DNA of 64,000 nt from Vulcanimicrobiota bacterium (lineage in GTDB: Bacteria; Vulcanimicrobiota; Vulcanimicrobiia; Vulcanimicrobiales; Vulcanimicrobiaceae), in contig OY970223.1 of assembly GCA_963714015.1 (NCBI GenBank), forward strand, positions 1,888,001 through 1,952,000. The letters run 5' to 3'. The notes beneath the pieces were generated by a model, which saw nothing but the letters and a program-made list of their open reading frames with translations, made no database searches and was not told the origin of the DNA. Made by a program: the position numbers and the translations under genes. The first letter of the stretch is position 1. Each line of letters begins with the position of its first letter. Below are positions 10,080 through 30,988 of this stretch, piece by piece.

Positions 10080-10083
10080 GGAA

Positions 10084-10105
10084 AGGGCTCGCGTGCGCGA
10101 GCCCT
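10084..10105. terminator. Hairpin between convergent genes
   Basis: AGGGCTCGCG-tg-CGCGAGCCCT. Confidence 0.55.
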
Positions 10106-10129
10106 CTCTCGTTGATTGAAATGCGTTTC

Positions 10130-11290: not shown

Positions 11291-11481
11291 TCAAAAAACT
11301 CCATTTGTGACGCGGGTGGGTCGCGTGAGGCTCTCGCTTGATTCTTTATAGCGCAGGGCGGGAGGCCGCTTCATGAGCCGGCTCTGAGAGAACGGTTAGG
11401 AACCGATGAGAACGGTTTACGCGGCGGCACAGGACTCGGGAGTGAGGGCGACGTACCCTGCTCCGGCCGACGGGGTACCTT

Positions 11482-11569
11482 GGGTAGGTGGCCGAGTGGT
11501 TAAAGGCAACAGACTGTAAATCTGTCCAGCTAACGCTGTACGCTGGTTCGAATCCAGCCCTGCCCACCA
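11482..11569 (+). tRNA. tRNA-Tyr(GUA)
   Basis: ACAGA-CT-GTA-AA-TCTGT, long variable arm, A73, CCA encoded. Confidence 0.96.
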
Positions 11570-11608
11570 TGATTCGATCGCGACCATTGCGCGACGTTTT
11601 TCCGTAGT

Positions 11609-12262
11609 TCAGTCAAGAAGGGCAACCGCAGCGGACAGGCCCTCAAGCGACGGCAGATATGCGGTCGCGGCGTTCGGATCTTCTCCCGTATGGTCGCGGT
11701 CGATCCAGACACGCGGAATCCGAAGTTCGCGCGCGGGCGCGATGTCGTGATAAAAGCTGCAGGCGACGTGAATCCATCGCGATCGCCCTTTCGTCAAGTG
11801 GTCAAAGCGGCGAAAATGATCGAGCGAGGGTTTATAGGCGCGAACGTCCTGCGCCGTTACGACGAGATCGAACGAAACGGGCAGCGTCGCTCGCGTGCGT
11901 TCAAAGAGATCGTTATCGCAATTCGTCAGCGGCGCAAGTTTAAAACCGGAGCCGCGCAGCTTGCGCAACTCAGGGGCAACGTCTGCAAAAACGGGCTGTT
12001 CATCCCATCGATCGGCGAGGACGTCGCGGTCCCGCGCGCGCAAGGGAAAGTCGATAAATTCGGCAGCGCGCGTCAAGCCTTCATGCAGAATATTGCGATA
12101 AGAGCGATACGAAGCGCGTTCGAGTTGCGCTTCAAAACGGTGATACGCCGCCGCCAGTTCTTTTGCGCGATCGCCGGCGACTCGGTGAAGAATCAGAGGA
12201 AATCCCGCCTGCCAGCTCACCAGCGTCCCGTAACAATCGAACGTTATCCAAGAATCGCTCAC
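11609..12262 (-). CDS. HAD-superfamily hydrolase (haloacid dehalogenase-like)
   Basis: ITFDCYGTL, LTNCD, YKP, HVACSFYHDI. Confidence 0.85.
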   Translation of the reverse strand: MSDSWITFDCYGTLVSWQAGFPLILHRVAGDRAKELAAAYHRFEAQLERASYRSYRNILHEGLTRAAEFIDFPLRARDRDVLADRWDEQPVFADVAPELRKLRGSGFKLAPLTNCDNDLFERTRATLPVSFDLVVTAQDVRAYKPSLDHFRRFDHLTKGRSRWIHVACSFYHDIAPARELRIPRVWIDRDHTGEDPNAATAYLPSLEGLSAAVALLD

Positions 12263-12386
12263 GCAAAAGTCTAGCGTGCGAACGGTTTGCGTACCTTCAA
12301 AACGGCACCGGCCGCCGCATGGAGGCGAAGACCCCGGCACTGTCCAAACTGACGCCCCGAGCCGAAGACATATGAGATAAGGATTT

Positions 12387-12460
12387 GCGGGCGTTGCATA
12401 GTGGTAGTGCTTCTGCCTTCCAAGCAGACAGCGCGGGTTCGATTCCCGCCGCCCGCTCCA
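12387..12460 (+). tRNA. tRNA-Gly(UCC)
   Basis: GCGGGCG acceptor, TCTGC-CT-TCC-AA-GCAGA, TCCA end. Confidence 0.95.
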
Positions 12461-12512
12461 TCCGCTTCAAGTGCGTCGCGGCATCGGAGCGTCGAGCGGA
12501 GCGATTTTCGAC

Positions 12513-12587
12513 GCCGTTGTAGCTCAGTGGTAGAGCATCTCCTTGGTAAGGAGAAGGCCACGGGTTCAATCCCCGTCAACGGCTCCA
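12513..12587 (+). tRNA. tRNA-Thr(GGU)
   Basis: GCCGTTG acceptor, TCTCC-TT-GGT-AA-GGAGA, short variable loop, U73, CCA. Confidence 0.96.
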
Positions 12588-12597
12588 GAATAGTACG

Positions 12598-12627
12598 AGA
12601 GACCGGCCACCCGCCGGTCTCTTTTTT
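12598..12627 (+). terminator. Intrinsic terminator after the tRNA pair
   Basis: AGAGACCGGC-caccc-GCCGGTCTCT followed by a T-run. Confidence 0.8.
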
Positions 12628-13128
12628 CTAAAGGCGGTAATGCGAGGGAAGCGGTGTGAGCGCCGTAAAGGCGGCCACCAGACGCTCGATGCCCGCCCGA
12701 TCGTCATCGCCGAACCGCGCGAGCTGCGGACTGTCGATGTCGAATACGCCGTAAATCGCCCCTTCGCAAAGCAGCGGAACCACCAGTTCCGACCGCGAGG
12801 CGGTGTCGCAGACGATGTGATCGGCGAATGCGTGCACGTCGTCGACGATCAGCGACGCACGCGTGGAAAAACTGCGGCCGCAGACGCCCCGGCCTTGTGG
12901 CAGGCGCGTGCAAGCCGGCTTGCCTCCAAACGGTCCGAGCACCAGCCCGCCCTCGATAGGAAAATAAAAACCGGCCCAATTCACCCCCGGCAGTTCATTA
13001 AAAACAAATGCCGCAAAATTCGCGGCGTTCGCAATGAAGTCGCGCTCGCCGGATAGCAGCCCGCGCACCTGCTTCTCGAGCAAGTGGTAGTCTACGGGTG
13101 CGCGGGGCGGTGCACCGGTTGAAGTCAT
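12628..13128 (-). CDS. msrC: GAF-domain free methionine-R-sulfoxide reductase
   Basis: NWAGFY, LGPFGGKPAC, GRGVCG, HIVCD..SRSELVVP, DIDSP. Confidence 0.85.
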   Translation of the reverse strand: MTSTGAPPRAPVDYHLLEKQVRGLLSGERDFIANAANFAAFVFNELPGVNWAGFYFPIEGGLVLGPFGGKPACTRLPQGRGVCGRSFSTRASLIVDDVHAFADHIVCDTASRSELVVPLLCEGAIYGVFDIDSPQLARFGDDDRAGIERLVAAFTALTPLPSHYRL

Positions 13129-13183
13129 TCGGCCGCCTTCGAATCCGCGGGGGAAGCGGCCTTCCGAAGGTGCCGGTCGAAAG

Positions 13184-13257
13184 CGCGCCCGGGCGGAATC
13201 GAACCGCCAACCTCGGCCTTAGGAGTGCCTTGCTCTATCCAATTGAGCTACGGGCGC
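13184..13257 (-). tRNA. tRNA-Arg(CCU)
   Basis: GCGCCCG acceptor, D loop with A20, CT-CCT-AA loop, GGCGG-TTCGATT-CCGCC; anticodon stem has two mismatches. Confidence 0.88.
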
Positions 13258-13358
13258 ACGCCGGCCGGCTTAGCTTAGGCGGACAGGGCCGCCGCCCTTT
13301 CCGCAACAGCTAGCCCCGGCAGGCGTTCCCTAGCCTGCTTGCCGACCTCGAACTTTGG

Positions 13359-13388
13359 TTGCAACTCCGCCTGCGAGCGTGCTATACT
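13359..13388 (+). promoter_or_regulatory. Sigma70-type promoter of the rpmG-secE-nusG operon
   Basis: TTGCAA-N18-TATACT with an extended TGn -10. Confidence 0.55.
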
Positions 13389-13444
13389 GGCATGTCGAAC
13401 GGACCGCTGGTCCGTTTTCTTTACGTTGTGTGGTATAGAGGATC

Positions 13445-13609
13445 GTGGCGAAGAAAGAGAATCGGGTGATGGTCGTGATGGCGTGCACTGAGTGCAAGCG
13501 CCGCAATTACAACACCCAGAAGAACAAGCAGAAAACCTCGCAGCGTCTCGAGCTGAGCAAGTACTGCCGCTTTTGCCGTTGCCATAAGCCGCACCGCGAG
13601 ACGAAGTAG
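13445..13609 (+). CDS. rpmG: 50S ribosomal protein L33 (Zn-binding type)
   Basis: Hand translation [62 protein letters not shown]. Confidence 0.95.
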
Positions 13610-13638
13610 CCTGTTGCCCTGCCAATGGGCACGTATTT

Positions 13639-13715
13639 AGGGCGGTAGACTCAATTGGTAGAGTCCTCGTCTCCAAAACGAGTTGTTGCAGGTTCGAGTC
13701 CTGTCCGCCCTGCCA
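13639..13715 (+). tRNA. tRNA-Trp(CCA)
   Basis: CTCGT-CT-CCA-AA-ACGAG, G73, CCA; usual position between rpmG and secE. Confidence 0.93.
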
Positions 13716-19005: not shown

Positions 19006-19129
19006 CGAACTTCTGCCGAGAGACGGTTGCCCCCTGGGGGAGGTTCGCGCGCGTACACCGAAGATATGAGGCGACGGCGCCGTATTTTACGGGCGGTCCT
19101 CCTTACATTCACTCGGTAGAGTCTGACAT

Positions 19130-20201
19130 ATGCGGCTACGTTCTTGGCGCGGCACCACGGTTGTAAGTCCCACACCGCGCCGCTCATTTCCATGGGTTCG
19201 GCTTCTGATTTTCGCGGCGGTGCTCGGCATCGCGGCTTATCTTATTATTCCGAACATCTACTACGTACGCGCGGACGCTCTCGTCCGGGGCGACTTGATA
19301 CCCGTGACGCCGGTCTACCGGGTCCGTGTCGACAAGCTGCTCGTTTCGTGCACGGATCGTGTCCACGCCGGCGAGCCGGTGGCGGTCATCAGCAACTTTT
19401 TGCTCCAGGCGGACTACACGCGGGAGTACCTGCAAGGGCTGCAGCAGTCGCAGATCGCCGGGATCGCGCTGGATCAGAACGTGGCGACGGCGCGTGAGAA
19501 CGCCGAGTCGCTCCATCAGCGCTACCTTCAGGCCGTTGCCGACGACCAGCGGCTGGAAGAGTCGTTCGGATCCTACGACAAGGCCTACAAAGCCGGCGCC
19601 ATTCCGCAGGTCGACTGGGCGGACAAGAAGGCCGAGATCGACGCATCCAAGGCCATGGTCCAAGCATCGCTTGACGCTTGGAAGCGGGCTCAACTGTTCG
19701 TCGCGCAAGTAACGGCTACGCAGACGACCAAGATCTCGTCCGACCAGGCACTCCTCCAGCAGGCGCAAACCGTTGCGAACCGCGTTGGGCAAGAGAAGTC
19801 TGTTCGCACCGGTAAGCGGTGACATCGTCGAGTGCATCGAGCGTCCGCAGAACGTCATTGAAGCGGGAACGCCGCTCTTCAGCATCTTCCAACCCGATCG
19901 CGCGTACATCGTTGCCTATTTTTCGCCGAACGCGGTCGCCAAGGTGCACATCGGACAGTCCGCCGACGTGAACATCGCCGGCCTCCCGAATAGCGTCAAG
20001 GGTCGCGTCGCCTGGATTTACCCCAACCTCGACGCGCTGCCGCCCGAGCTGACCCGGTTCTTCTGGCAGCACGTGCAGTTCTCGCAATACCGGCCGGTCA
20101 AGATCGCCCTCGACCGTCTGCCCGAATCGGACCGGAGCCAGCTCTACTACGACGCGCAGGCACGCGTGAGTATCAGCGTGTCCGGTCAGAAGCTGCAATG
20201 A
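19130..20201 (+). CDS. HlyD/membrane-fusion-protein family (frameshift near 19797)
   Basis: N-terminal TM, lipoyl half motif (DRVHAGEPV), long coiled coil, APVSG..., VHIGQSADV...GRVAWI. Confidence 0.8.
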
Positions 20202-20830
20202 ACGGCGACAGCAATCAACGACTGCTCCAGGTTCTCGCGCTGGTTCCCAAGGATTCCCATCTGGATCCCCACTGGGAGCCGCGCGCGCCGGCCGGAGCCA
20301 CCTATGGGGACGCCGTTGCCGGCTTAGATCCGGACCAGGTCGCCCAGGACCTCGAGACCCTCGCTGACCGCGGCTATGCGGAACGGATATTCGTCGAACG
20401 CCTAATGATCTGTCCGTCCTGCTCGAGTCATGCGGTCAACGTTCACGAGTCGTGCGTCACTTGCAACTCGTCCAACCTCGAGTCGATCACGTCGTACTTC
20501 CATTTCCGCTGCGGTTTCATCGGACCGGAAAAGGCGTTTACGAAAGAACCCGCCGGCCTGCGCTGCCCCAAATGCAAGAAGTACCTGGTCGACGTGGGAA
20601 CCGATCACGATAGCCCTGGGGTCTTTTTCGAGTGCAAGAATTGCGCTGCGATGTTCCAGCAGCCGAATATGGGCGTGCGGTGCCTGGGATGCGGCGCGCG
20701 ATTCACCGGCCTGGCCCTGCAGGATCTCAAACACCGCGACGTCTACGCGTACCGGCTGCTGCTTCGCGGCCAAAATGCGCTCGCAAACGGAGCGCTGGAG
20801 ACCAGCGACCTGAATGCTCGATCTCTTTAA
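20198..20830 (+). CDS. Multi-CxxC Zn-ribbon protein (TackOD1-like)
   Basis: CPSC, CVTC, HFRCG, CPKC, VGTDHDSPG, CKNC, CLGC; start and stop overlap both neighbours. Confidence 0.7.
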   Translation: MNGDSNQRLLQVLALVPKDSHLDPHWEPRAPAGATYGDAVAGLDPDQVAQDLETLADRGYAERIFVERLMICPSCSSHAVNVHESCVTCNSSNLESITSYFHFRCGFIGPEKAFTKEPAGLRCPKCKKYLVDVGTDHDSPGVFFECKNCAAMFQQPNMGVRCLGCGARFTGLALQDLKHRDVYAYRLLLRGQNALANGALETSDLNARSL

Positions 20831-22114
20831 TCGGTTACTGACAAGCCTCGACAACTTCTACATTTGGAACGCGTTCCTCGCCGTTCCGCACCTGCTGTAC
20901 AGCACGAGTCTGATCTTCTGGCTCGTCGTGTTCCTGGTTGTGCGCTTCGAAACTCCTAACTTCGCGTTGTACGTCGCCTACTTGGTGAATCGTAAGGCAT
21001 TCGAGCCGCCGCCCCTGCGGCGTTTCGCGAACAATCAGCCGCTGATCTCGTTTCTTATCGCCGGACGCAACCCGGGCGCGAGCATCATCTCGTGCATCGA
21101 ATCGATTCTGGCGAGCAACTACAAAAACATCGAGATCATCTTTGCCGACGACAAGTCCACCGACAATAGCGTCGAGCTGGCGCGCAAATTCGAGTCTTCC
21201 GGCAAAGTCCGCGTCGTCGCGAATGCCAACCACAGCGGAAAAGCCGCCGGGCTCAATCTGGCGCTGATGTTCGCTCGCGGAGAGTTCGTTTTCATCCTCG
21301 ACGCCGACAGCTGGTGTTTCCCGACACCGTCGACAATATGCTGCCGTATTTCGAGGACCCGAAGGTCGGCGGCGTCTCACCGAGCATTTTCTGCCGCAAT
21401 CCGTTCGATAGTTTCTGGACGCGGTGCCAGCAGATCGAATACGTCATGGCGTACGTCATGAACCAGCTCTGGCGCGACAAACTCGGAGTCATCGCCACCC
21501 TCTCCGGAATGGGGACGCTCTTCCGGATGGAGGCCATCAAGCACATCGGCGGCTGGGACATGGGATTGGGCGACGACACGGACAGTACGATCCGGTTGCG
21601 CAAAACGCATTGGACGCTGCACACTTCGCTGCGCGGGCATATCCTGACCGAATGTCCCAAGACGCTCAGCCATCTCTGGAGCCAGCGTTCGAGGTGGACC
21701 CGCAACATGGTCAAACAGCGGATGCGTAAGCACCGCGATTTGGGGACGTTCCGCTACGGGTTCAGGAACGGCCTGATGTTCTGGGACATGACGTTCAATC
21801 GCATCGTCCACCCGTATCTGCTGGTGGGGCTGCCGCTGCTCGCCTTCTTTCTGAAGACTCCCGACATTCCGGTCATAGCGGGCGGACTGTACGCCTTTAC
21901 GACCATCATTTTTACGCTCGAATTGCTGATGGCCCGCGATATGACGCGGCGCGATCCCTCGATGCAGAATTTTCTGCTGATGCCAATCTACGTTCTCTAT
22001 CGCATTCCGCTGCTGACCGTTCGGCTCGTTCAGATTACCCGCGAGCTGCTGATGATCAAGCCATGGCATCCCTACGTTCCACGCCGGGTGTGGGACGCGA
22101 TCCCGTTCCACTAG
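20814..22114 (+). CDS. Processive GT2 glycosyltransferase / polysaccharide synthase (frameshift near 21312)
   Basis: DDKSTD, GKAAGLN, DAD, GDD, QRSRW (QxxRW); TM helices at both ends. Confidence 0.88.
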
Positions 22115-22151
22115 AGTAGTTTCAGGACTCGCCGGCCCCGGTCACCCCGCC

Positions 22152-23465
22152 CTAAGGCGAGGTGATCGAGAACAGCGCGTTGCCGTTGCTGCGAATGTTC
22201 AGGACGCCGTTTGGAGCATACGACCGGATATCCGTGGCGAACGCCTGGTACGTCGGTGACGTTGAAATCGAGTCGTACTGGAACGACTGATTGTTGTCTT
22301 CGTACCATGAGATTGCGTGAAGGTGCGGATACGGCGTGTTCGGCGAGGTCAGTACCGAGAACATCGCGTCGATCCACGCAGCCTTCATGGCACCGCCGTC
22401 GCCATATTCGTTTGAGGCGGTTTCCGTGACCATAATCGGCTTGTTTTCGGTAGCTTTGATCGCGTAGTTGTACGCGCCGCCCATCATGAACGTGAACGCG
22501 TACCACCTGCGTCCATTGTTGTAGCTGCCCATGTTGTAGCCGTCCAGCGCAACCCAGTCAACGTAGGAGTCGCCGGGGTATGCTGCCGGAGGCTCGTTCC
22601 ACGATTCGACCGGGCTCGTGCCGCTGTTGAAGCACCAGATGAACTTCACGTTCGAGGCGCCTACTTGACGGAAGATCGTGACGACATGCTGCCAAGCCGC
22701 GATAAAGTTGGCGTCTGCAACCGGCCCCGCGCCGTTCTGCGGTAGTCCCCATGCATACCGCGTCGTGTTGAACTCGTGGAAGAGCCGGATGAACACGGGC
22801 TGTCCGAACGCCTTCAGCGTCTGTGCGGAAGCGGTGATGTACGAGTCATAATCGCCGGCCGCGATCCCGGCAAGCGTAACCGTCGAATGAGCCGACTGTG
22901 CCTGCCACGTGATGTCGGGGATCGTATTTTGAGCCTCCATCGCCGCCAGCGCGTTCTGAGAGATGACGTTCGTCATTGCCTCGTCCCACGTCGAGTACAC
23001 CGTGCCGATCGCTATCCCGTGCCGCATGACGGAGGGAAAGTTTGTGCACGTAAGTGCAGCCCACAGGCCGCAATCGGCGCCAAGGAAAATGCCGGACGTG
23101 GAGTTACTTGGGTCCGGTAATATCGGCAAACCGTTGGGGTTGAATGTCGGCACCGGGCTAGGCGTGGGGCTCGGCGCATTCGTCGGCCAGGGTGTGCCGG
23201 TGGGCCAGGGTGTGCCGGTCGGCCAGGGGGTGCCGGTGGGCCGGGGGGTGCTCGTCGGCCACGGGCTGCCGGTGGGCCGCCAGTTCGGTGTAGAAGTCGG
23301 GGAGGGGCTCGGCGTGGTGCTCGGACGCGCCGATGGGAAACTTTGGCCAAGGCCGGCCGTCGATGCGCCTCCGGTGCTGGGGATACCGGCTCCGCCGCCG
23401 CCGCATGCGGTCAGAATCGTTGCGGCCAGGGCTAGGGTCAATACACTTCTCGTCTGTCTGCTCAC
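22152..23465 (-). CDS. GH26 glycoside hydrolase lipoprotein with Pro/Thr linker
   Basis: Lipobox ILTAC; PTGTPW repeats; [29 protein letters not shown]. Confidence 0.85.
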
Positions 23466-23548
23466 AAACGAGTAATCGGCGTCTTAATGTTTTTGGTGTA
23501 GTCGCTTTACAAATTCTTAAGGGTTGGTACTCCTCAATACCAAACGAG

Positions 23549-23578
23549 AAGCGCCCCGCGAATCCGCGAGGCGCTTGG
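23549..23578 (-). terminator. Probable terminator after the sulfotransferase
   Basis: Minus strand AAGCGCCTCGCG-GATT-CGCGGGGCGCTT followed by CTCGTTT. Confidence 0.55.
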
Positions 23579-23600
23579 AACGGTTGCCTAATCCCGCGGC

Positions 23601-24317
23601 TTAGACGCCGACGCAAACCTCGTATTTCGAACACTCTTGCTTGAAGATTTCCTTTGCCTTGGCGTAGAGCTCGACGTCTTGCGCTCGATACTTGTTGACC
23701 AGTCTGCGCACCTCGTCGCTTACTTCGAAGGCGCCGCCAACGCGCTTGGTTACGTTGGCAAAACGCGGCGGTCCAAGGTCGTGCCGGAACCGCGCCTTGA
23801 AGAGTTCCCAGCTCTTCTCGTATTCCTCGTAGAGGCCGACGAAGGCGAATTCTTCGATGGGAACGCTGCCCACGAACTGCGATTGGTGATCGTGGTAGAA
23901 CAGCCACTTGAAGTGTTCTTCGAGCGTGGGGCGCAGCTCTTGCCAGTAACGGACCTCAGCGTGAACCTCCTTGTTCGCATCGCTCTTGCGATCGGTCAGC
24001 GCGCTTTGCCAGCGCCAGTGCGAAATCGACTGCTGCGCCGGTTCGCGCACGAACGTGACGTATTCGGCTTGCGGGAAGAGACCCACGTACTTGTCTGCGC
24101 AAAAATGTCCGTGTATGACATCGTAATTCTCGAGCAGCTCTTCGCGCCGAGCGCGCATTGCAGCCATCCGCAGGTCGCGGCGGCGGTTGGCGAACGGCTC
24201 GTCGAAACCGACCCAGTCCCCGTAGTCGCGGAAGACGCGCTCGACGTCGTATGCATCCATCAAGGCCTCACGAAACGAATTTCCGGCGGTCTTGGGGATG
24301 TGGATTGAAAGTAACAT
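23601..24317 (-). CDS. PAPS-dependent sulfotransferase
   Basis: 5'-PSB motif IHIPKTAGNS, GHF, 3'-PB motif VREP...SISHW, C-terminal N...DVELY. Confidence 0.85.
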   Translation of the reverse strand: MLLSIHIPKTAGNSFREALMDAYDVERVFRDYGDWVGFDEPFANRRRDLRMAAMRARREELLENYDVIHGHFCADKYVGLFPQAEYVTFVREPAQQSISHWRWQSALTDRKSDANKEVHAEVRYWQELRPTLEEHFKWLFYHDHQSQFVGSVPIEEFAFVGLYEEYEKSWELFKARFRHDLGPPRFANVTKRVGGAFEVSDEVRRLVNKYRAQDVELYAKAKEIFKQECSKYEVCVGV

Positions 24318-24347
24318 AGGCTCGTTCAATGCTCTCTTTCGGTGTGA

Positions 24348-25373
24348 TTATGGTACGGGCTGCGCCCCGGCATTCGTCGCTTCCGCGGCGCGGAGAGCGC
24401 CGGTCAAAGCTGTTCGGATGATTGCGTCGATCTCCAGGTAGCGCGGCTGCCACCCCAGCGTGCGATTTGCAAGCGATGCATCGGCAACGAGAACCGGCGG
24501 ATCGCCTTCGCGGCGAGGTCCGGCGCCGTGCGGGACCCGGCGGGCGGCGACGCGTTCGACGCTGCTCAAAAGTTCTTTGACGGACGTGCCGCGACCGGTT
24601 CCCAGATTGAGCGTGAGAACGCCGGCGTTGTTCTCGAGGTGCTTGAGCGCGAGCATGTGCGCTTCGGCCAAATCGTCGACGTGGATGTAGTCGCGAATGC
24701 AGGTTCCGTCGGGCGTGTTGAAGTCATCGCCGAAAATCGTAAACGGTTTTCCGCCCAATGCGGCGCGAATAGCCAGCGGAATAGCGTGGGTTTCGGGATC
24801 GTGCAGCTCGTAAAGATCGTGCGTCTCGCTGCTTCCGGCGGCGTTGAAGTAGCGCAGCAGCGCGAAACTCATTCCGTAGGCGGCGGCAAAGTCGCGCATC
24901 ACGTGCTCGATCATCAGTTTGGAACGGCCGTAAGGATTGATAGGCCGTTCGTCCATGGTTTCGTCGAGGTGCTTGCCCTCGGGCGGTATGCCGTACGTCG
25001 CGCACGTTGAAGAGAACACGACGCGCCGCACGCCGCTATCGCGAAGCGCGGTGAGCAGCCGGCACGTTTGAACCACGTTGTTTTCGTAATACAGACCCGG
25101 ATCGACGACCGATTCTCCGACTGCGGCGAACGCCGCAAAATGGACGACGCCGGTTACGTTGTGGCGGCGCACCGTATCGCGGATCGCTTCGACGTCTCCG
25201 ACGTCGGCGCGAACCAGTTTGCCGGTGGGAACGAACGTCCCGTTAGAACGGCTGAGGTTGTCCACGACGACGTACGGAACGCCGCGATCCTGAAGAAGGG
25301 CGGCGAAGTGCGACCCGATGTAGCCGGCCCCTCCCGTGACTAGGAGCGAGCCGCCCAGGTACGCGTTTTCCAT
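24348..25373 (-). CDS. galE: UDP-glucose 4-epimerase
   Basis: VTGGAGYIGSH, HFAA, FSSTCATYG, YGRSK, LRYFNAAG, DGTCIRDYIHV. Confidence 0.93.
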   Translation of the reverse strand: MENAYLGGSLLVTGGAGYIGSHFAALLQDRGVPYVVVDNLSRSNGTFVPTGKLVRADVGDVEAIRDTVRRHNVTGVVHFAAFAAVGESVVDPGLYYENNVVQTCRLLTALRDSGVRRVVFSSTCATYGIPPEGKHLDETMDERPINPYGRSKLMIEHVMRDFAAAYGMSFALLRYFNAAGSSETHDLYELHDPETHAIPLAIRAALGGKPFTIFGDDFNTPDGTCIRDYIHVDDLAEAHMLALKHLENNAGVLTLNLGTGRGTSVKELLSSVERVAARRVPHGAGPRREGDPPVLVADASLANRTLGWQPRYLEIDAIIRTALTGALRAAEATNAGAQPVP

Positions 25374-25379
25374 GTTCGC

Positions 25380-27041
25380 TTAAGCCCCCGAGGAGAGCCC
25401 CGAAACGATCCGCGCGAGCACCTCGTGGGTTGCGGCGTCCATTCCAAAGAACTCCAAATGATACTGGTACCAGCCGTTGTCGGCGATGCGGTGGTCTACC
25501 ACCCGCGCCTGGAGCACGACTTCGTCCGTGACGCTCGCTCCATGCACGTGCGGAGCCTTGAACCGGACTTCAACACGCGAGCCGATGGGCAGCATGTCAT
25601 CGGCGGCCATGAGCAATCCGCCGGCCGAGATGTTTTTCATACGAGCGGAGCGGCGCGCCGAGATCGACGTCTGATACGTCATGGCCAAGTCGGTGCCGAT
25701 GCGCACGCTGGAGCGCGCGTCGGTTTCGGCGGAATCCCATGAAACCGAACTAATGAGCAGCGCACCGCTAGTGCGGTGGCTCGAGGGATCGACGACGATC
25801 ATCGAACCCGCGGTACGGTTCGTCTGGTAAAGGTCGACCGGAAGCGCTTCCTGCGTTTCGAAGGTGACGTAACCGATCTCGTTTACTTCGAGCGCGTGCG
25901 CAGCAGTGCGGTCGAGCGTGTGAATGTCCAGGCAGCTCTCGATGCTGACGATGCGTCCTTGAATCCAGCGCGAGCCGTGACGGATCCAGTACTTGCGGCC
26001 AATCTGCGCGGGTTCGGTGTCCATCCACGCAAGTGCAGCGGAGAAACGCTGCGTGCTGCGTACAGTGTGCGGCGTCGATATCCAGTTTCCGCGCGCCACG
26101 TCCACGTGGCGATCGAGGACGAGTCCGGCCGATTCGCCCGCTTGAACGATTTCCACGCGGTCGCCGGCGCGCCGCACTTCGACTACCGTTGCAGATTCGT
26201 TGCTCGGGAATATCTGCACGCTATCGCCGCGCTGCACGCTGCCGCCGCAGACCCGTCCCCACACGACGCGGGTATGGTTGCTGCCCGTAGCGGGATCGCG
26301 CGAGACGTATTGCACCGGCATGAGGAAATTGCCGTCTTTGGTGCCGTCCTCTTCGACCGGAAGACATTCGAGCAATTCGAGAAGCGTCGGCCCGGTATAC
26401 CAGTCCAATCCGCCGCGCGTCGTTACGTTGTCGCCGTTCAGCGCGGAGATCGGCACGATTGCCCGCACCGGAATTCCGGCGGCGCCGCTGAGCTGCAGCA
26501 GCGCTTCGCAGACGGCCTCAAAGCCTTCACGCTGGTTGGGAATAGCGTCGATCTTATTGACGGCGAACACGATGCTCGGGATGCGCAAGAGGTGCGCGAG
26601 AAGCGTATGGCGGCGCGTTTGAGCGAGCAGCGTAACGGGACGTTTGCTCACATCGAGTTTCGTGATGTCGACCAGCACCACGGCCGCGTCGCTTCCGGTG
26701 GCCGCCGTAACCATGTTCCGCGTGTACTGTTCGTGCCCCGGCGCGTCCGCGATGATGAACTTGCGCTGGCGCGTCGAAAAATAACGGTACGCGACGTCGA
26801 TGGTGATGCCTTGCTCGCGCTCGGCCTCCAATCCGTCGGTCAGCAGCGCGAGATCGATCTCCTGACCGTTACTGCTCAAACGGCCAAGCTGATCCGCTAG
26901 AATCGCTTGACATTCGTACAACAATCGGCCCGTGAGAGTGCTCTTCCCGTCGTCCACGCTCCCGGCCATCAGAAACCGCAACGCGCGGTCTTCGCCCGGA
27001 CGGTTGTTGCCGGCGGGGACAGCGTTCATCATAACCACCAT
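25380..27041 (-). CDS. cysN: Sulfate adenylyltransferase GTPase subunit fused to a C-terminal PilZ domain
   Basis: GSVDDGKSTL, EREQGITIDVAYRYF, DAPGHEQYTRNM, NKID; last ~110 aa carry RSSVR (RxxxR) and NISAGG (D/NxSxxG). Confidence 0.9.
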   Translation of the reverse strand: MVVMMNAVPAGNNRPGEDRALRFLMAGSVDDGKSTLTGRLLYECQAILADQLGRLSSNGQEIDLALLTDGLEAEREQGITIDVAYRYFSTRQRKFIIADAPGHEQYTRNMVTAATGSDAAVVLVDITKLDVSKRPVTLLAQTRRHTLLAHLLRIPSIVFAVNKIDAIPNQREGFEAVCEALLQLSGAAGIPVRAIVPISALNGDNVTTRGGLDWYTGPTLLELLECLPVEEDGTKDGNFLMPVQYVSRDPATGSNHTRVVWGRVCGGSVQRGDSVQIFPSNESATVVEVRRAGDRVEIVQAGESAGLVLDRHVDVARGNWISTPHTVRSTQRFSAALAWMDTEPAQIGRKYWIRHGSRWIQGRIVSIESCLDIHTLDRTAAHALEVNEIGYVTFETQEALPVDLYQTNRTAGSMIVVDPSSHRTSGALLISSVSWDSAETDARSSVRIGTDLAMTYQTSISARRSARMKNISAGGLLMAADDMLPIGSRVEVRFKAPHVHGASVTDEVVLQARVVDHRIADNGWYQYHLEFFGMDAATHEVLARIVSGLSSGA

Positions 27042-27044
27042 TGA

Positions 27045-28003
27045 TTAGAAATAGCCTTCGAGTTTGCGCCGCTCCATTGAAGCTTCGGAGGTGCTGTCGT
27101 CCATACGCGTAGCGCCGCGTTCGCTGACAGTCACCGAAACGGTCTCGGCGATGATTTCCTGCGGAGTCGAAGCGAAGCTCTCGACACGGGACAGGTGCAC
27201 GTCATGTCACCAACGGTGCGGAATCTCACGGAGACGCTTTCAGGCCGTTCGAGCGGCTGAAGCGGTGTAATATCCGTGATCGGCACGAGAAGATCGCGCC
27301 GGCGCACGACCGGACGCATGTGCGAGTAGTAGAGAGAGGGCAGCGCAATTTCTTCGCGGGCGATATAGAGCCACACGTCCAACTCGGTCCAGTTCGAGAT
27401 CGGGAACGCGCGCATATGTTCGCCCGGGCGAACGCGCGTGTTGAAGAGCGTCCACAACTCGGGGCGCTGCTCTTTGGGCCGCCATTGTCCGAAACGATCG
27501 CGATGCGAGAAGATGCGCTCTTTTGCGCGAGCCTTTTCTTCGTCGCGGCGCGCGCCGCCGATCAGCACGTCGAAGCGATGCTCCTCGATCGTTTCGAGCA
27601 GCGTCACTGACTGATGGCTGTTGCGGCTTTCGAGCGGATGCGAAAGGCGAACCGTTCCGCGCTCGATGGAATCCTGAAGGCTGCCCACGATGAGGCGTTC
27701 TCCGGTTTCCGCGACGCACCAGTCGCGGAATTCGATTACTTCCGGGAAATTATGACCCGTGTCAATGTGCACGAGCGGGAACGGCAGCGTTCCGCGATAG
27801 GTACCGTCGGCATCGCGGTGCTTGAACGCCTTTTCCGCAAGGCGAAGCACGACGCATGAATCTTTGCCGCCGGAGAACAACAGTGCGGGCCGTTCGAAAG
27901 CACCCGCGACTTCGCGCAGGATGAAAATCGCCTCTTCCTCGAGCCAATCGAGATGGCGAACGTTAAGCGGCGAAGTCTGCTCAACAGTAAGAGCTGCGTC
28001 CAT
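27045..28003 (-). CDS. cysD: Sulfate adenylyltransferase subunit 2 (frameshift near 27183)
   Basis: LFSGGKDS, GGARRDEEKARAKER, QRPELW, VRFRTVGD; shifted frame ends SMERRKLEGYF*. Confidence 0.94.
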
Positions 28004-28460
28004 CGTAAATTGTCGCGTCCTAACGAATGAAAGGAGATGCGGTCATCTGCGCCTTTTCCGGCATACACTCCTGCCCGATGCCCTCGTTACAAGTAGTCCA
28101 TTCGGCACGTTCGCTGTTTAGACTTTACGCTCCTAATATTAGGCGTTTGCACCGTTGCGTCGGCATATATGGCTTTTACATCTTCGGCATTGCCTGCGCA
28201 ACAGATTAGAATCGCCGCTATCTCGGCTTTCCTTATATCTCGGCTTTCCTTATATATGGGAATAGCTCCCAATCTCGTCATGAAGTCAAGACCGTGCAAC
28301 GGCAATAGTGAAAAAATACTAGTGACAAGCTAGGCTTTACGCTTGATTGACACTTCACGGCGCGATTGATATCGTAGCCGCACGAAGCCCCAAACGGGTT
28401 TTGCCGCTCGTATCTGCGGCGTTTACGGCAGATGCGGGCCACGGTTTCCGTAGGGAGCAC

Positions 28461-29240
28461 ATGAACGCAGAGCTCATTGCCATAGGATTTGTGGTAGGGA
28501 TCCTCGTCGGCCTCACCGGTGTGGGTGGAGGCAGCATTATGACGCCGCTCCTGATTGCGCTGAACATTCCGCCGCTGGCCGCGGTCGGAACCGACCTGTT
28601 GTACAGCGCCCCCACGAAGGTCTTTGGAGCCTATCTGCACCATCGTCAGCGAACCGTGAATTGGCGGCTGGTGGGTGCCTTGACGACCGGCGGCGTACCG
28701 GCCGCCATCGTGGGCGCACTAACGCTGGTATGGTTGCGCGGCCATGTCGCCCTGAGCGTGCTGCAGAGTTTCACGAAGCACGCGGTGGGCGCGGCGCTCG
28801 TCATTTCCGCGGTCATCATCATGGTGACGCCCTGGCTGCTCAAGGGTCAGGATCGGACCTCCGGCAACATCGAGTGGAATCGGGCCAGGCGTTGGAAGAC
28901 CATCACGATCGGTGCCGCGGTCGGCCTCATCGTGACGGTGACCTCCATCGGCAGCGGTTCGGTCACGCTTCCGATGCTCGCTCTGGTCTTGCCCGCAGCG
29001 GGCCTACAAACATTGGTAGGAACGGATATCGCTTTTGCCGCAATTCTCATACCAACCGCATTTCTGAGCCGGTGGTCGATGGGCGGCGGCGTCAACATTC
29101 CGCTCGCGGTCAACCTGATCGTCGGGTCCATGCCCGGGGTCTTCATCGGTACGAAGCTGTGCGGATTTCTCCAGCAGCGTTACCTGCGTCCCGCACTCGC
29201 TTTGACGCTCGTGGTCGTGGGCGCGCGAATGGTCGTCTAA
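28461..29240 (+). CDS. TauE/SafE (TSUP) family sulfur-compound transporter
   Basis: GLTGVGGGSIMTP, AVGTDL, TSIGSGS, LVGTDI; multiple TM helices; GGGAG RBS. Confidence 0.88.
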   Translation: MNAELIAIGFVVGILVGLTGVGGGSIMTPLLIALNIPPLAAVGTDLLYSAPTKVFGAYLHHRQRTVNWRLVGALTTGGVPAAIVGALTLVWLRGHVALSVLQSFTKHAVGAALVISAVIIMVTPWLLKGQDRTSGNIEWNRARRWKTITIGAAVGLIVTVTSIGSGSVTLPMLALVLPAAGLQTLVGTDIAFAAILIPTAFLSRWSMGGGVNIPLAVNLIVGSMPGVFIGTKLCGFLQQRYLRPALALTLVVVGARMVV

Positions 29241-29260
29241 GAACAGGAAGTTCACAGCAC

Positions 29261-29809
29261 TTGAAACGAGGATTCACCGTTTGGCTCACCGGCATGTCCG
29301 GCGCGGGCAAGAGTTCGATTTCCGAAAGACTCGCTGCAGAACTCGCCGCCCGCGGTGAGAGCGTCGAAGTGCTCGACGGCGACGAGGTCCGTACGCACCT
29401 TTCAAAGGGCCTGGGTTTCAGTCGCGAGGACCGCGACGTCAACATCGGCCGCATCGCGTTCGTCGCCTCGCTGCTGGTCAAGCACGGCGCCGCCGTCATT
29501 ACCGCCGCAATCTCGCCCTATGCTCAGGCCCGTGAAGCGGCGCGGAAGCAGATTGGCGACTTTCTCGAGGTCTACGTCCGCTGCTCGATTGAGGAACTCG
29601 CGCGTCGCGACGTCAAAGGCCTTTACAAGAAGGCAATCGCCGGCGAGATCGGTCAGTTCACCGGAATCTCCGATGAGTATGAGGCACCGCAAAATCCGAA
29701 CGTGACGGTCGATACGGAGTTGGAAACGATCGAAGAGAGCGTCTCCAAGATCATCGCGGCGCTGGAGGAGCGCGGGTACTTGCGGGCGGGCGAGCAAGCC
29801 CGCACCTAA
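29261..29809 (+). CDS. cysC: Adenylyl-sulfate kinase
   Basis: WLTGMSGAGKS, LDGDEVR, LGFSREDR, RDVKGLY, FTGISDEYEAP; TTG start. Confidence 0.94.
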   Translation: MKRGFTVWLTGMSGAGKSSISERLAAELAARGESVEVLDGDEVRTHLSKGLGFSREDRDVNIGRIAFVASLLVKHGAAVITAAISPYAQAREAARKQIGDFLEVYVRCSIEELARRDVKGLYKKAIAGEIGQFTGISDEYEAPQNPNVTVDTELETIEESVSKIIAALEERGYLRAGEQART

Positions 29810-29881
29810 CGTCCCGCGGCTATCGTCATCCGGTCCCCATCGGTAATGCCGTGGCCGTTACCATCGACGTTTACGTGAAGT

Positions 29882-29915
29882 AAGAAAGGCCTCGCCGGGG
29901 CGAGGCCTTTCTTTT
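29882..29915. terminator. Bidirectional terminator
   Basis: AAGAAAGGCCTCGCC-GG-GGCGAGGCCTTTCTT between convergent genes. Confidence 0.8.
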
Positions 29916-29931
29916 AGGCAGCAGCGTTACG

Positions 29932-30894
29932 CTACTGTTTGCACGCGCCGAGTTTGTTGCTCCACAACGGCTGCGTCGGGAACGTTCCGGTGGAGAACTT
30001 CGTGTTTTGCAGATCCTGCCAAGCGCACGCGTCGCCAATCTCTCCGAGCGGTCCGTTCCAGCCGCTAAAGGGCTGCGGATCGGTCTCGGTCTCGCCCTGT
30101 TCGTGTCCTTCGACGATCGACACGCCGTCATCGGTTCCGGGACTGTTCACCGAACCGGCGCCGCACGCTTGACCGGGATCGGGCATGTACGGCAAATTGG
30201 TGAACGCGATCGGGTTGCCGTTCTCGGTCTCATTGCTGTGCCACGCGCAGTATTCCGTACCGAAACCTGCCGGCAGGATGCCGTGCGGCATCGCAACGAC
30301 GTAGCTGGCGCTGTTCGTGTAGTCGCCGAAGTGTTTGGCAGCGCGCGCGGCTTCTGCGCCGATTTGCCCGTCGGTCGGCGACTGCGGCGGTTGATTCGCA
30401 CTATCCACATAAGCTCCGGCAAGGGTGGTAGTGTTCTTGATGAACGTCTTGACAGGTCCGTAGTACTGCGTGAGGGTGCCGGTCCATTGACTCCCATTCA
30501 GTCCCTTGGTAAACGTCCTGAGCACTTTTTGGACTCCGTCGGGATCGCCGCTCTTGCTGCTCCACGCCTTGCCCCAGAACACGATGTACATCTTTGGGCT
30601 GGCCTGAATCGGGCCGCCGCCGTAATTCAGATTGTCCGATTTCGACGGCGCGATGAGGCCCAGCGTTTGTGCGCGCGCGTAATCCTGACGCGTCGGAAAA
30701 TACGACGCCGTCATGCCGTTGTCGAGCACTTTGGTGAAGACGCTTTGCGTCGTACGCGCCGACGGAACGATGCGCCCGCCGCCTACCGACGACGGAAGAT
30801 TTTGCGTTTGCGGAATTGCGGCGCTGTGTTGGCCGCAAGCTGCCAGCATCGACGCAGCCGCCGCGAGCGCGGCAAATTTGGTCACTCTATGCAC
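29932..30894 (-). CDS. Lipoprotein with Phi-1/EXORDIUM-like domain, paralog 1
   Basis: Lipobox MLAAC; LNYGGGP, YIVFWG, YCAWH, HEQGETETDP, EIGDAC, QPLWSN. Confidence 0.7.
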   Translation of the reverse strand: MHRVTKFAALAAAASMLAACGQHSAAIPQTQNLPSSVGGGRIVPSARTTQSVFTKVLDNGMTASYFPTRQDYARAQTLGLIAPSKSDNLNYGGGPIQASPKMYIVFWGKAWSSKSGDPDGVQKVLRTFTKGLNGSQWTGTLTQYYGPVKTFIKNTTTLAGAYVDSANQPPQSPTDGQIGAEAARAAKHFGDYTNSASYVVAMPHGILPAGFGTEYCAWHSNETENGNPIAFTNLPYMPDPGQACGAGSVNSPGTDDGVSIVEGHEQGETETDPQPFSGWNGPLGEIGDACAWQDLQNTKFSTGTFPTQPLWSNKLGACKQ

Positions 30895-30988
30895 GAAGAA
30901 AAACCCCTTCAAACTAACGGTTTCAGAGAAAAGTATCTCTGACGTTTCTCTGCGTTCGAGGGTGTCCTTCGAGTGAGGACTAGTATCT

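What the first reader, a model, noticed from the sequence alone, without database searches (positions are those of the whole stretch)
25380..27041. CysN-PilZ fusion: possible c-di-GMP control of sulfate activation
Seen: a full CysN GTPase continues in frame, via the linker SSVSWDSAET, into ~110 aa with both canonical PilZ motifs, RSSVR (RxxxR) and NISAGG (D/NxSxxG). There is no separate start codon ahead of RxxxR. Known: the usual C-terminal partner of CysN is APS kinase (CysNC/NodQ); here CysC is a separate gene. PilZ domains activate BcsA and Alg44. The GT2 and MFP of this locus show no PilZ motifs. Inference: c-di-GMP may gate the donor supply (APS/PAPS) instead of the synthase, which would be an unusual control point.
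Basis: partly seen in the sequence, partly recalled or inferred. Interest (0 to 1): 0.82.

Follow-up and report, generated by a model that had tools for sequence, protein, structure and literature searches.

The report
CysN sulfate-activating GTPase fused to PilZ
A soil bacterium carries a sulfate-activating enzyme subunit with a built-in receptor domain for the biofilm signal c-di-GMP, set among genes for a sulfated sugar polymer, which suggests a so far undescribed way of switching polymer sulfation on and off.

Summary
ORF 25380-27041 (-) is one uninterrupted 553-aa frame. Residues 21-429 are a CysN scoring above the curated cut-off. Residues 443-546 are a PilZ domain above Pfam's gathering score, with RSSVR and NISAGG 23 residues apart. 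The fusion is not an assembly artefact: 21 homologues of 525-561 aa from other assemblies (55-93% identity) have the same architecture. RxxxR is kept in 22 of 22 sequences and [D/N]xSxxG in 20 of 22. The fused CysN parts form one clade (100/100) nested among unfused Burkholderiales-type CysN. The architecture is rare: 4 of 348 genomes of the family, and 0 of 200 other sampled genomes of the phylum. The gene lies in a cysD-cysN/pilZ-galE-sulfotransferase-GH26 string, next to TauE-cysC and an MFP-TackOD1-GT2 synthase operon. No PilZ lies on the GT2 or the MFP. The genome has 28 GGDEF matches. CysH, sulfite reductase and Sat were not found, so sulfate activation probably serves sulfation only. 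Best reading: c-di-GMP controls PAPS supply for a sulfated exopolysaccharide. Binding and effect are untested. Caveats: cysD, MFP and GT2 carry frameshifts in this assembly, and relatives hold a second CysNC. This is a new variant of a known kind.

The parts
25380..27041 (-). cysN-pilZ fusion gene, 553 aa
   Evidence: Colinear with P0001 (93% identity, 99% coverage).
25755..26981 (-). CysN core (residues 21-429): GTPase domain plus domains II and III. P-loop AGSVDDGKST, DAPGH and NKID are invariant.
   Evidence: TIGR02034 416.2 bits. Invariant columns. Best solved match is 1zun_B, P. syringae CysN: Foldseek E 1.5e-37, VIA Z 31.6.
25716..25748 (-). Linker, residues 432-442 (SSVSWDSAETD-A). Predicted disordered. 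No in-frame start codon.
   Evidence: pLDDT below 50 for residues 436-442. Sequence.
25404..25715 (-). PilZ domain, residues 443-546: RSSVR (443-447), NISAGG (470-475), a beta-barrel and a C-terminal helix.
   Evidence: PF07238 40.7 bits. Motif conservation 22/22 and 20/22. AF2 block-mean pLDDT 75-94 over residues 451-550. MotI/DgrA 5vx6_B: Z 15.0, rmsd 2.0 over 107 residues.
27049..28003 (-). cysD (sulfate adenylyltransferase small subunit). Its last ~46 codons are in another frame in this assembly (extra 'GT' near 27173-27185). The restored frame would stop 3 nt before the cysN ATG.
   Evidence: NF003587 374.4 bits against cut-off 195. Frameshift shown.
24348..25373 (-). galE-like UDP-glucose 4-epimerase. 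Starts 6 nt after the cysN-pilZ stop.
   Evidence: TIGR01179 359.1 bits against cut-off 262.3. Epimerase 1.2e-57.
23601..24329 (-). Carbohydrate-type sulfotransferase-like protein ('ST242'), a divergent Sulfotransfer_2 relative. IHIPKTAGNSF aligns with the PAPS 5'-phosphosulfate-binding loop of HS6ST.
   Evidence: No Pfam hit at E <= 0.1. Atlas score 0.97 to Sulfotransfer_2 clusters. 18 of 120 listed homologues carry PF03567. Profile against PDB: HS 6-O-sulfotransferase 4e-12, HS 2-O-sulfotransferase 3.3e-8. AF2 pLDDT 93.3 and Foldseek top hits 5t03 and 4ndz.
22152..23465 (-). GH26 glycoside hydrolase with a lipoprotein-type signal (…ILTACGGG) and a Pro/Thr-rich linker.
   Evidence: PF02156 37.6 bits. 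Sequence. Three GH26-like genes in the syntenic G280 locus.
20814..22114 (+). GT2 synthase-like glycosyltransferase, split by a 1-nt frameshift near 21318 in this assembly.
   Evidence: Intact 447-aa orthologous frame in G280, no PilZ.
20198..20830 (+). TackOD1-domain protein (210 aa, Cys-rich) between the MFP and the GT2.
   Evidence: PF18551 136.6 bits. Conserved in G280 and G279.
19091..20201 (+). HlyD-type membrane fusion protein, split by a 1-nt frameshift near 19790 in this assembly.
   Evidence: Intact 384-aa frame in G280.
28347..29240 (+). TauE/SafE-family anion transporter, divergent from cysD.
   Evidence: PF01925 149.9 bits. Syntenic in G280 and G337.
29267..29809 (+). cysC (APS kinase). 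Domain from 29267; the true start was not determined.
   Evidence: PF01583 197.4 bits at residues 203-351 of ORF 28661..29809.

Best explanation
The gene encodes the GTPase subunit (CysN) of a CysD·CysN ATP sulfurylase. Its C-terminus, where many bacteria carry the APS-kinase domain, carries a canonical c-di-GMP receptor (PilZ) domain instead. I propose that c-di-GMP binds at the RxxxR linker and the [D/N]hSxxG strand and re-orients the PilZ barrel against the CysN/CysD core. This would switch on, or relieve inhibition of, GTP-coupled APS synthesis. APS then goes to the separately encoded CysC, and the resulting PAPS goes to the co-transcribed carbohydrate sulfotransferase. Sulfation of an exopolysaccharide, made by the neighbouring MFP-TackOD1-GT2 synthase and trimmed by GH26, would then proceed only when c-di-GMP is high. 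Shown: the fusion, its conservation and single origin, intact GTPase and PilZ motifs, the PilZ fold in the model, the gene neighbourhood, and c-di-GMP machinery in the genome. Also shown: known sulfate-reduction genes were not found. Inferred: c-di-GMP binding, its effect and sign, and the sulfated polymer.
For: Architecture.
Conservation:
- 21 homologues of 525-561 aa at 55-93% identity.
- RxxxR in 22/22 and [D/N]xSxxG in 20/22, with I, L or V at the 'h' position in 19 of those 20, as in the refined motif [D/N]hSxxG (preprint 10.1101/814665, passages read).
- The motifs hold although the tail is only 39% identical on average against 69% for the core.
Fold:
- Tail block-mean pLDDT is 75-94 over residues 451-550, and the linker is disordered.
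- VIA Z 15.0, rmsd 2.0 A over 107 residues to B. subtilis MotI/DgrA, a PilZ protein.
- The core matches 1zun_B, CysN of the CysD·CysN heterodimer.
Single origin: the fused clade has 100/100 support.
Context:
- cysD stop to cysN start is 3 nt once the frame is restored. cysN stop to galE start is 6 nt, followed by the sulfotransferase-like gene and GH26 on the same strand.
- The sulfotransferase assignment rests.
- The module ST-like + TauE + CysC + CysD + CysN-PilZ recurs in G280 (same genus) and G337 (another genus, unpublished). CysD-CysN/PilZ lies beside GH26 on a metagenome contig.
- Five further fused homologues share their longest-contig length with an ST242 homologue: 11794, 195814, 21764, 28673, 25873. 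This is indirect.
Signalling and metabolism:
- 28 GGDEF and 9 PilZ matches in the genome.
- No other PilZ in the window, and none on the GT2, MFP or TackOD1 genes.
- No ATP-sulfurylase (Sat), no NIR_SIR, and only the two CysD as PAPS_reduct matches. Activation therefore probably feeds sulfation, not cysteine synthesis.
Precedent for a c-di-GMP/PAPS link, at the level of transcription: c-di-GMP and BrpT raise cysDNC expression in Vibrio vulnificus (PMC6113621, passages read).
Against: - No binding or activity data exist.
- In this assembly cysD, the MFP and the GT2 each carry a frameshift relative to intact orthologues. The pathway may be decaying in this strain, or the assembly may have indel errors.
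- A second CysD-CysNC locus with its own TauE and sulfotransferase exists here. It is intact in G280. Gating one sulfurylase gates sulfation only if PAPS is channelled or limiting.
- The architecture is rare: 4 of 348 family genomes, 0 of 200 other sampled genomes of the phylum, and one 50%-identity cluster among 1.84 billion representatives.
- In G337 neither the GT2 nor the TackOD1 protein found a match genome-wide, so the link to this synthase is not universal.
- 2 of 22 tails lack the second motif: P0037 has DLGMGG, and the P0013 tail looks frameshifted.
- The sign of regulation is inferred only by analogy with other c-di-GMP-activated exopolysaccharide systems.
Confidence: 0.55

Rival explanations
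1. Recruitment rather than allostery. c-di-GMP-loaded PilZ tethers CysD·CysN to a partner (free CysC, the sulfotransferase, TauE or the membrane synthase complex). APS/PAPS is then made and handed over locally, without any change in the intrinsic catalytic rate.
For: The PilZ sits exactly where CysNC/NodQ-type proteins carry the APS kinase, and here CysC is always a separate neighbouring gene. A second PAPS source in the same cell makes local hand-over attractive. The tail is tethered by a disordered linker.
Against: No partner was tested. The tail's conserved surface features (AR.VAH, Y.YH/N.AF) are shared with stand-alone 218-241-aa PilZ proteins, so no fusion-specific interface is evident.
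Confidence: 0.2
2. Negative control. c-di-GMP binding shuts the sulfurylase off, for example to save ATP and GTP in the sessile state, or to make an unsulfated polymer when c-di-GMP is high.
For: The architecture and motifs say nothing about sign. Some PilZ proteins act as brakes, such as the YcgR/MotI class (recalled). The closest solved fold listed is MotI.
Against: The locus is an exopolysaccharide locus, and known polysaccharide outputs of c-di-GMP are activations (BcsA, Alg44; recalled). In V. vulnificus c-di-GMP raises cysDNC expression.
Confidence: 0.1
3. The PilZ tail no longer signals. It is a ligand-independent structural or adaptor domain, or it binds another ligand.
For: The tail evolves faster than the core (39% against 69% mean pairwise identity). 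4 of 21 long homologues have no precomputed PF07238, and the G337 copy does not reach Pfam at 1e-4.
Against: RxxxR in 22/22 and [D/N]xSxxG in 20/22 despite the divergence. The spacing of 23 residues is canonical. The fold is kept.
Confidence: 0.1
4. The enzyme serves assimilatory sulfate reduction (cysteine synthesis), and c-di-GMP tunes sulfur assimilation in general.
For: CysD·CysN is the assimilatory sulfurylase of many Proteobacteria (NCBIfam names). In G337 a class-V aminotransferase gene follows the fusion.
Against: No CysH-type reductase, no NIR_SIR sulfite reductase and no Sat were found in a one-contig genome of 3.56 Mb (marker completeness 89.6%). The gene is co-oriented with a sulfotransferase, galE and GH26.
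Confidence: 0.04
5. The fusion is an artefact: an indel in this assembly joined cysN to a separate downstream pilZ gene.
For: This assembly does carry frameshifts in at least four nearby or related genes.
Against: 21 homologues from other assemblies have the same single frame and a conserved linker. So do three other genomes and two metagenome contigs. The linker holds no start codon. One contig of a public run bridges the junction without a gap.
Confidence: 0.01

Closest known systems
CysD·CysN GTP-regulated ATP sulfurylase (Pseudomonas syringae, PDB 1ZUN; E. coli CysDN)
   Same: Residues 10-432 superpose on 1zun_B (Z 31.6, 41% identity). All GTPase motifs are present. A CysD gene lies immediately upstream. 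TIGR02034 scores above its cut-off.
   Different: It carries about 110 extra C-terminal residues forming a PilZ domain. It is set in a sulfation/exopolysaccharide locus rather than a cysteine regulon.
CysNC / NodQ bifunctional sulfate adenylyltransferase subunit 1-APS kinase
   Same: Both add a functional domain to the CysN C-terminus. Both kinds of gene occur in the same genome.
   Different: The appended domain is a second-messenger receptor, not the next enzyme. NF004035 reaches only 432.8 bits against a cut-off of 715 and matches profile positions 22-441 of 632. The phylum's own CysNC proteins are only 28-44% identical.
PilZ-gated polysaccharide machines: BcsA (GT2-PilZ) and Alg44 (PilZ-MFP)
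   Same: A canonical PilZ with RxxxR and [D/N]hSxxG is covalently attached to a component needed for exopolysaccharide output, and the locus contains GT2 + MFP + glycoside hydrolase.
   Different: The PilZ is on neither the synthase nor the MFP. It is on the enzyme that makes the sulfate donor, so the control point would be polymer modification or donor supply.
Transcriptional c-di-GMP/PAPS circuit of Vibrio vulnificus (PMC6113621)
   Same: It links c-di-GMP to cysDNC output and to biofilm polysaccharide.
   Different: There the link is transcriptional (BrpT). Here a receptor domain is fused to the enzyme itself, which implies post-translational control.
Stand-alone two-domain PilZ proteins of 218-241 aa (P0122, P0123 and others; also in genomes of the same family)
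   Same: Their C-terminal PilZ is the nearest relative of the tail (31-40% identity). They share TRSSVRVP, N.S.GG, AR.VAH and Y.YN.AFF.
   Different: They have no enzyme part (Pfam finds PilZ only in 5 of 5 such proteins scanned).

Membership tests
CysN (sulfate adenylyltransferase large subunit, TIGR02034) | Whole-protein score above the curated cut-off | tested here: met
   416.2 bits against 336.1
CysN (sulfate adenylyltransferase large subunit, TIGR02034) | GTPase motifs G1 (GxxxxGKS/T), G3 (DxxG) and G4 (NKxD) | tested here: met
   AGSVDDGKST, DAPGH and NKID are invariant in 24 and in 40 aligned sequences
CysN (sulfate adenylyltransferase large subunit, TIGR02034) | Partner CysD encoded alongside | tested here: met
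   cysD lies directly upstream (NF003587 374.4 bits against 195), but its C-terminus is frameshifted in this assembly
CysN (sulfate adenylyltransferase large subunit, TIGR02034) | GTP-dependent stimulation of APS synthesis | not testable with these tools
   Needs an enzyme assay
PilZ (PF07238), canonical c-di-GMP-binding type | Score above Pfam's gathering threshold | tested here: met
   40.7 bits against 22.5; 44.7 bits for the tail alone
PilZ (PF07238), canonical c-di-GMP-binding type | RxxxR in the N-terminal loop | tested here: met
   R443 and R447; present in 22 of 22 fused sequences
PilZ (PF07238), canonical c-di-GMP-binding type | [D/N]hSxxG about 20-30 residues downstream | tested here: met
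   N470-I-S-A-G-G475, 23 residues after R447; present in 20 of 22. Motif definition from 10.1101/814665
PilZ (PF07238), canonical c-di-GMP-binding type | Six-stranded beta-barrel followed by a C-terminal helix | tested here: met
   AF2 strands between 448 and 532 and helix 536-552. Z 15.0, rmsd 2.0 over 107 residues to MotI 5vx6_B. This is a predicted model, not a structure
PilZ (PF07238), canonical c-di-GMP-binding type | Binds c-di-GMP | not testable with these tools
   Needs DRaCALA, ITC or MST
CysNC / NodQ (NF004035) | C-terminal APS-kinase domain in the same polypeptide | tested here: not met
   432.8 bits against cut-off 715, and only profile positions 22-441 of 632 matched. APS_kinase is in a separate gene
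BcsA/Alg44-type PilZ-gated synthase systems | PilZ domain on the GT2 synthase or on the MFP co-polymerase | tested here: not met
   No PilZ on the GT2 or MFP pieces or on the intact G280 orthologues at E <= 0.1. The only PilZ match in the window is the CysN tail
Sulfotransfer_2 (PF03567) for the neighbour at 23601-24329 | Match to the Pfam model | tested here: not met
   No Pfam family at E <= 0.1. 18 of 120 listed homologues carry PF03567
Sulfotransfer_2 (PF03567) for the neighbour at 23601-24329 | PAPS-binding sulfotransferase fold with the 5'-PSB loop | tested here: met
   Profile against PDB: HS6ST 4e-12 with HiPKtAGtsF aligned to HIQKTGGTTF, HS2ST 3.3e-8. Foldseek top hits 5t03 and 4ndz, TMq 0.51-0.57

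The most novel reading that the evidence does not exclude
c-di-GMP rebuilds a sulfate-activating complex on demand. The PilZ that replaced the APS-kinase domain of a CysNC-like ancestor position captures free CysC (and perhaps the sulfotransferase) only when loaded with c-di-GMP. A channelled CysD·CysN·CysC 'PAPS factory' would then assemble at the exopolysaccharide synthase. This would be the first direct second-messenger switch on sulfur activation and on the chemical modification of a biofilm polymer, as distinct from its polymerisation.
Probability: 0.12. Interest if true: 0.8.

Novelty: new variant of a known kind. Interest (0 to 1): 0.62.

Why it matters
Known c-di-GMP receptors of polysaccharide pathways act on the synthase, its co-polymerase or on transcription. 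A receptor domain welded to the enzyme that makes the sulfate donor would put polymer chemistry (sulfation, and hence charge, hydration and metal binding) under direct second-messenger control. It would also add sulfate activation to the short list of metabolic enzymes controlled by c-di-GMP. It gives a simple testable system: two soluble proteins, one ligand, and point mutants. It also points to sulfated exopolysaccharides in Vulcanimicrobiota (Eremiobacterota), a widespread and almost uncultured soil phylum. The gene's history is a compact example of how new signalling outputs can arise: a Burkholderiales-type cysN picked up a PilZ of a subfamily that also occurs as stand-alone proteins in this family's genomes.

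Tried and rejected
- Complex prediction (CysD + CysN core + PilZ tail as partner + 2 c-di-GMP, using the intact L031 proteins): never ran. The queue was full, and the tool was declared unavailable. There is no verdict of any kind.
- The search for homologous proteins restricted to the tail: only P0001 and P0002, because word sharing limits it. Uninformative on range.
- Metagenome scan with a tail alignment: only 2 loci.
- Rfam at gathering threshold over the whole window: 6 tRNAs, no riboswitch near the locus.
- Promoter and terminator scan of 22000-30000: counts no higher than in shuffles.
- Sequencing runs: no RNA holder listed. Only one DNA run holds part of the stretch (share 0.30). Its contigs leave 25380-25547, 26052-26387 and 26836-27041 uncovered, which says nothing.
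- ESM Atlas with the full protein: only unfused CysN clusters, score 0.88. Clusters under 50 members are not searched, so this is no evidence of absence.
- Earlier findings of this scan: nothing.
- Literature searches for the fusion or a PilZ/PAPS link found no paper describing it. The searches were PilZ+CysN, PilZ+'sulfate adenylyltransferase', c-di-GMP+sulfated+exopolysaccharide+sulfotransferase, 'PilZ-related domains'+'domain architectures', Eremiobacterota+'sulfate adenylyltransferase' and PilZ+PAPS. The co-occurrences were judged from titles and abstract openings only, and looked like genome inventories or the surname Pilz. Subscription journals and InterPro/Pfam architecture tables could not be searched.
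- The idea that conserved tail residues (AR.VAHR, Y.YHL.F) mark a fusion-specific interface was dropped, because stand-alone relatives share them.
Full report
**Observation**

The ORF at 25380..27041 on the minus strand is a single 553-aa frame.
- NCBIfam calls residues 21-429 CysN: TIGR02034, 416.2 bits against a cut-off of 336.1.
- The bifunctional CysNC model reaches only 432.8 of the 715 bits it requires and matches only its first 441 of 632 positions.
- Pfam finds GTP_EFTU (21-222), GTP-eEF1A_C (332-427) and PilZ (443-546). PilZ scores 40.7 bits against a gathering score of 22.5, and 44.7 bits for the tail alone.
- The linker holds no in-frame ATG, GTG or TTG.

**Is the fusion real?**

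The evidence rules it out.
- Among the 120 best of 8000 scored relatives, 21 proteins of 525-561 aa from other assemblies are colinear with the whole query at 55-93% identity. 17 of the 21 carry a precomputed PF07238.
- Across the window protein and these 21, RxxxR is present in 22 of 22 and [D/N]xSxxG in 20 of 22. The exceptions are P0037 (DLGMGG) and P0013, whose tail looks frameshifted after RxxxR.
- The motifs hold although the tail averages only 39% pairwise identity against 69% for the core (21 sequences, P0013 left out).
- One 182-nt contig of a public soil run spans 25592-25773 without a gap. That run may be the sample of origin, so this is weak support.

**Structure**

An AlphaFold2 model from a 40-row alignment has mean pLDDT 77.9.
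- It shows a disordered linker (residues 436-442, pLDDT below 50).
- The tail is modelled well (10-residue block means 75-94 over residues 451-550). It consists of beta strands between 448 and 532 followed by helix 536-552.
- Against about 48,000 solved chains, the core matches P. syringae CysN of the CysD·CysN heterodimer (1zun_B, Z 31.6, 388 residues aligned).
- The tail (439-553) matches the C-terminal PilZ of B. subtilis MotI/DgrA (5vx6_B, Z 15.0, rmsd 2.0 A, 107 residues) (Foldseek agrees on 1zun_B).
- G1, G3 and G4 of the GTPase are invariant.

Both halves therefore look functional.

**Distribution and origin**

The architecture is rare.
- In 200 other sampled genomes of the phylum, no match extends past query residue 452. 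The best identity is 44%, and these are CysNC-like frames of about 610-680 aa.
- In 348 genomes of the family (own genome included), the tail lies at the end of a long CysN frame in only four: the window's genome, both other genomes of its genus (G279, G280), and G337 of another genus, which is unpublished. The other 24 genomes with a match hold PilZ proteins with open frames mostly of about 140-340 aa.
- A full HMMER pass of the tail over 1.84 billion representatives found a single cluster (P0001) with the CysN + tail layout. The next hits include 218-241-aa proteins with a C-terminal PilZ. Pfam scans of 12 of the 54 hits showed PilZ only in 10, and GTP_EFTU in none.
- Those stand-alone proteins share the tail's subfamily signatures.

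A maximum-likelihood tree placed all fused sequences in one clade.
- It had 76 rows: the CysN parts of 21 fused sequences, every second unfused hit (50 rows), and 5 CysNC proteins of the phylum. P0013 was left out.
- The fused clade has 100/100 support. It also contains a 413-aa partial protein that its source labels Eremiobacteraeota.
- The clade is sister to an unfused protein (97/85) and nested among unfused CysN that sources name Piscinibacter, Rhizobacter, Caldimonas and the like (66-68% identity).
- The phylum's own CysNC lies across a branch of more than 4 substitutions per site (quick version).

The simplest history is that a Burkholderiales-type cysDN was acquired by a Vulcanimicrobiaceae lineage and fused once to a PilZ of a subfamily that also occurs as stand-alone proteins in this family's genomes. 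The taxon names are those that sources give to P0012, P0028 and P0031 together with the synonymy. Direction and order of events are inferred.

**Neighbourhood**

On the minus strand lie cysD, cysN-pilZ, a GalE (TIGR01179, above its cut-off), a 242-aa protein, and a lipoprotein-type GH26.
- The cysN stop and the galE start are 6 nt apart.
- With the cysD frame restored, its stop lies 3 nt before the cysN ATG.

The 242-aa protein has no Pfam hit, but four lines of evidence make it a PAPS-dependent carbohydrate-type sulfotransferase relative:
- The language-model atlas places it with Sulfotransfer_2 clusters (score 0.97; 23 of 30 hits).
- 18 of its 120 listed homologues carry PF03567.
- A 43-sequence profile hits heparan-sulfate 6-O- and 2-O-sulfotransferases in the PDB (4e-12 and 3.3e-8), with its HIPKTAG loop on their PAPS loop.
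- Its model (pLDDT 93.3) finds the same enzymes first.

Divergently transcribed are a TauE/SafE transporter and cysC. Convergent on the plus strand is an MFP-TackOD1-GT2 operon. None of the GT2, MFP or TackOD1 genes has a PilZ, here or in the intact G280 orthologues.

Synteny:
- G280 has ST-galE-PQQ protein-three GH26-like genes-unknown-cysN/pilZ-cysD, then TauE-cysC.
- G337 (unpublished) has ST-like-TauE-cysC-regulator-cysD-cysN/pilZ-aminotransferase. Neither the GT2 nor the TackOD1 protein found a match in that genome.
- A metagenome contig has GH26-cysD-cysN/pilZ.
- Five more fused homologues share their longest-contig length with an ST homologue. This is indirect.

The constant core is therefore sulfotransferase + TauE + CysC + CysD + CysN-PilZ.

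**Genome background**

The genome is one contig of 3.56 Mb with marker completeness of 89.6%.
- It has 28 GGDEF and 9 PilZ matches.
- It has no Sat-type ATP sulfurylase, no NIR_SIR sulfite reductase, and only the two CysD as PAPS_reduct matches. No route from PAPS or APS to sulfide was found.
- A second locus holds CysD-CysNC-TauE beside a Sulfotransfer_3 protein and sugar-modifying genes.

Both sulfate-activating systems thus sit with sulfotransferases.

**Mechanism**

The best-supported reading is that c-di-GMP binds the PilZ tail and positively controls CysD·CysN output. PAPS for the co-transcribed sulfotransferase, and hence sulfation of the locus's exopolysaccharide, would then follow the c-di-GMP level.
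- The rivals are recruitment of CysC or other partners without allostery, inhibition instead of activation, and a silent domain.
- Nothing here measures binding, sign or contacts. The complex prediction that might have hinted at a docking site could not be run.
- A transcriptional c-di-GMP/cysDNC/PAPS loop is known in Vibrio vulnificus (PMC6113621, passages read).
- No paper describing a CysN-PilZ protein was found in six searches.
- The PilZ survey preprint 10.1101/814665 (passages read) contains none of the words 'sulfate', 'CysN' or 'GTPase'.

**Caveats**

- In this assembly cysD (a 2-nt insertion), the MFP (1 nt extra), the GT2 (1 nt missing) and the second-locus cysNC are each split relative to intact orthologues.
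- The second CysNC is intact in G280. Gating one sulfurylase therefore matters only if PAPS is limiting or channelled.
- The family is small and its members are uncultured.

**Verdict**

The fusion is genuine, conserved and of single origin. It attaches a canonical c-di-GMP receptor to a new kind of enzyme partner, in a coherent sulfation locus. This is a new variant of a known kind. It is of real interest to c-di-GMP and polysaccharide specialists and is directly testable, but it is functionally unproven.

Noticed in passing
window 27173-27185 (cysD), ~19790 (MFP), ~21318 (GT2); G000:C1 ~2818758 (cysNC, L001 ~5759): Four genes of the two sulfation loci are split by small indels relative to intact orthologues in G280 and L031: +2 'GT' in cysD, +1 in the MFP, -1 in the GT2, and one break in cysNC. 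These are either residual assembly errors (the one-contig genome has only 89.6% marker completeness) or decay of the pathway in this strain.
   Followed up: partly
window 20198-20830 (+): A stand-alone TackOD1 protein (PF18551, 136.6 bits) sits between the MFP and GT2 genes. TackOD1 is a Cys-rich 'output domain' described from thaumarchaeal response regulators, of unknown function. The gene is conserved in the same place in G280, and an orthologue is present in G279. It may be an uncharacterised regulator of the synthase.
   Followed up: partly
G000:C1:2813000-2824000 (L001): A second sulfate-activation locus holds CysD-CysNC-TauE next to a Sulfotransfer_3 protein, WbqC, hexapeptide transferase, nucleotidyl transferase and methyltransferase genes. 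Sat, CysH and sulfite reductase were not found, so the organism may activate sulfate only for sulfation.
   Followed up: partly
window 25755-26981 (-): The CysN core is 66-68% identical to Burkholderiales CysN (Piscinibacter, Rhizobacter, Caldimonas) but only 28-44% identical to the CysNC proteins of its own phylum. This suggests horizontal acquisition before the fusion.
   Followed up: yes
window 22152-23465 (-); L028 4817-7827: The GH26 has a lipoprotein-type signal and a long [11 protein letters not shown] Pro/Thr linker. The syntenic locus of G280 has three tandem GH26-like genes.
   Followed up: no
G279:C40:3314-3577 (L030): A second tail-like fragment (41% identity to the PilZ tail, 93-aa open frame) lies at the end of a 3.6-kb contig in G279. 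It may be a second fused copy cut off by the contig end.
   Followed up: no
window 5031-5495 (-): A GGDEF-domain gene (145.2 bits, 536-aa open frame) lies about 20 kb from the fusion. It is one of 28 GGDEF matches in the genome.
   Followed up: no
window 29932-30912 (-): A 326-aa lipoprotein-like ORF with no family match is conserved next to the locus in G280 (61% identity).
   Followed up: no
window 8240-13712: A cluster of six tRNA genes lies upstream of nusG.
   Followed up: no
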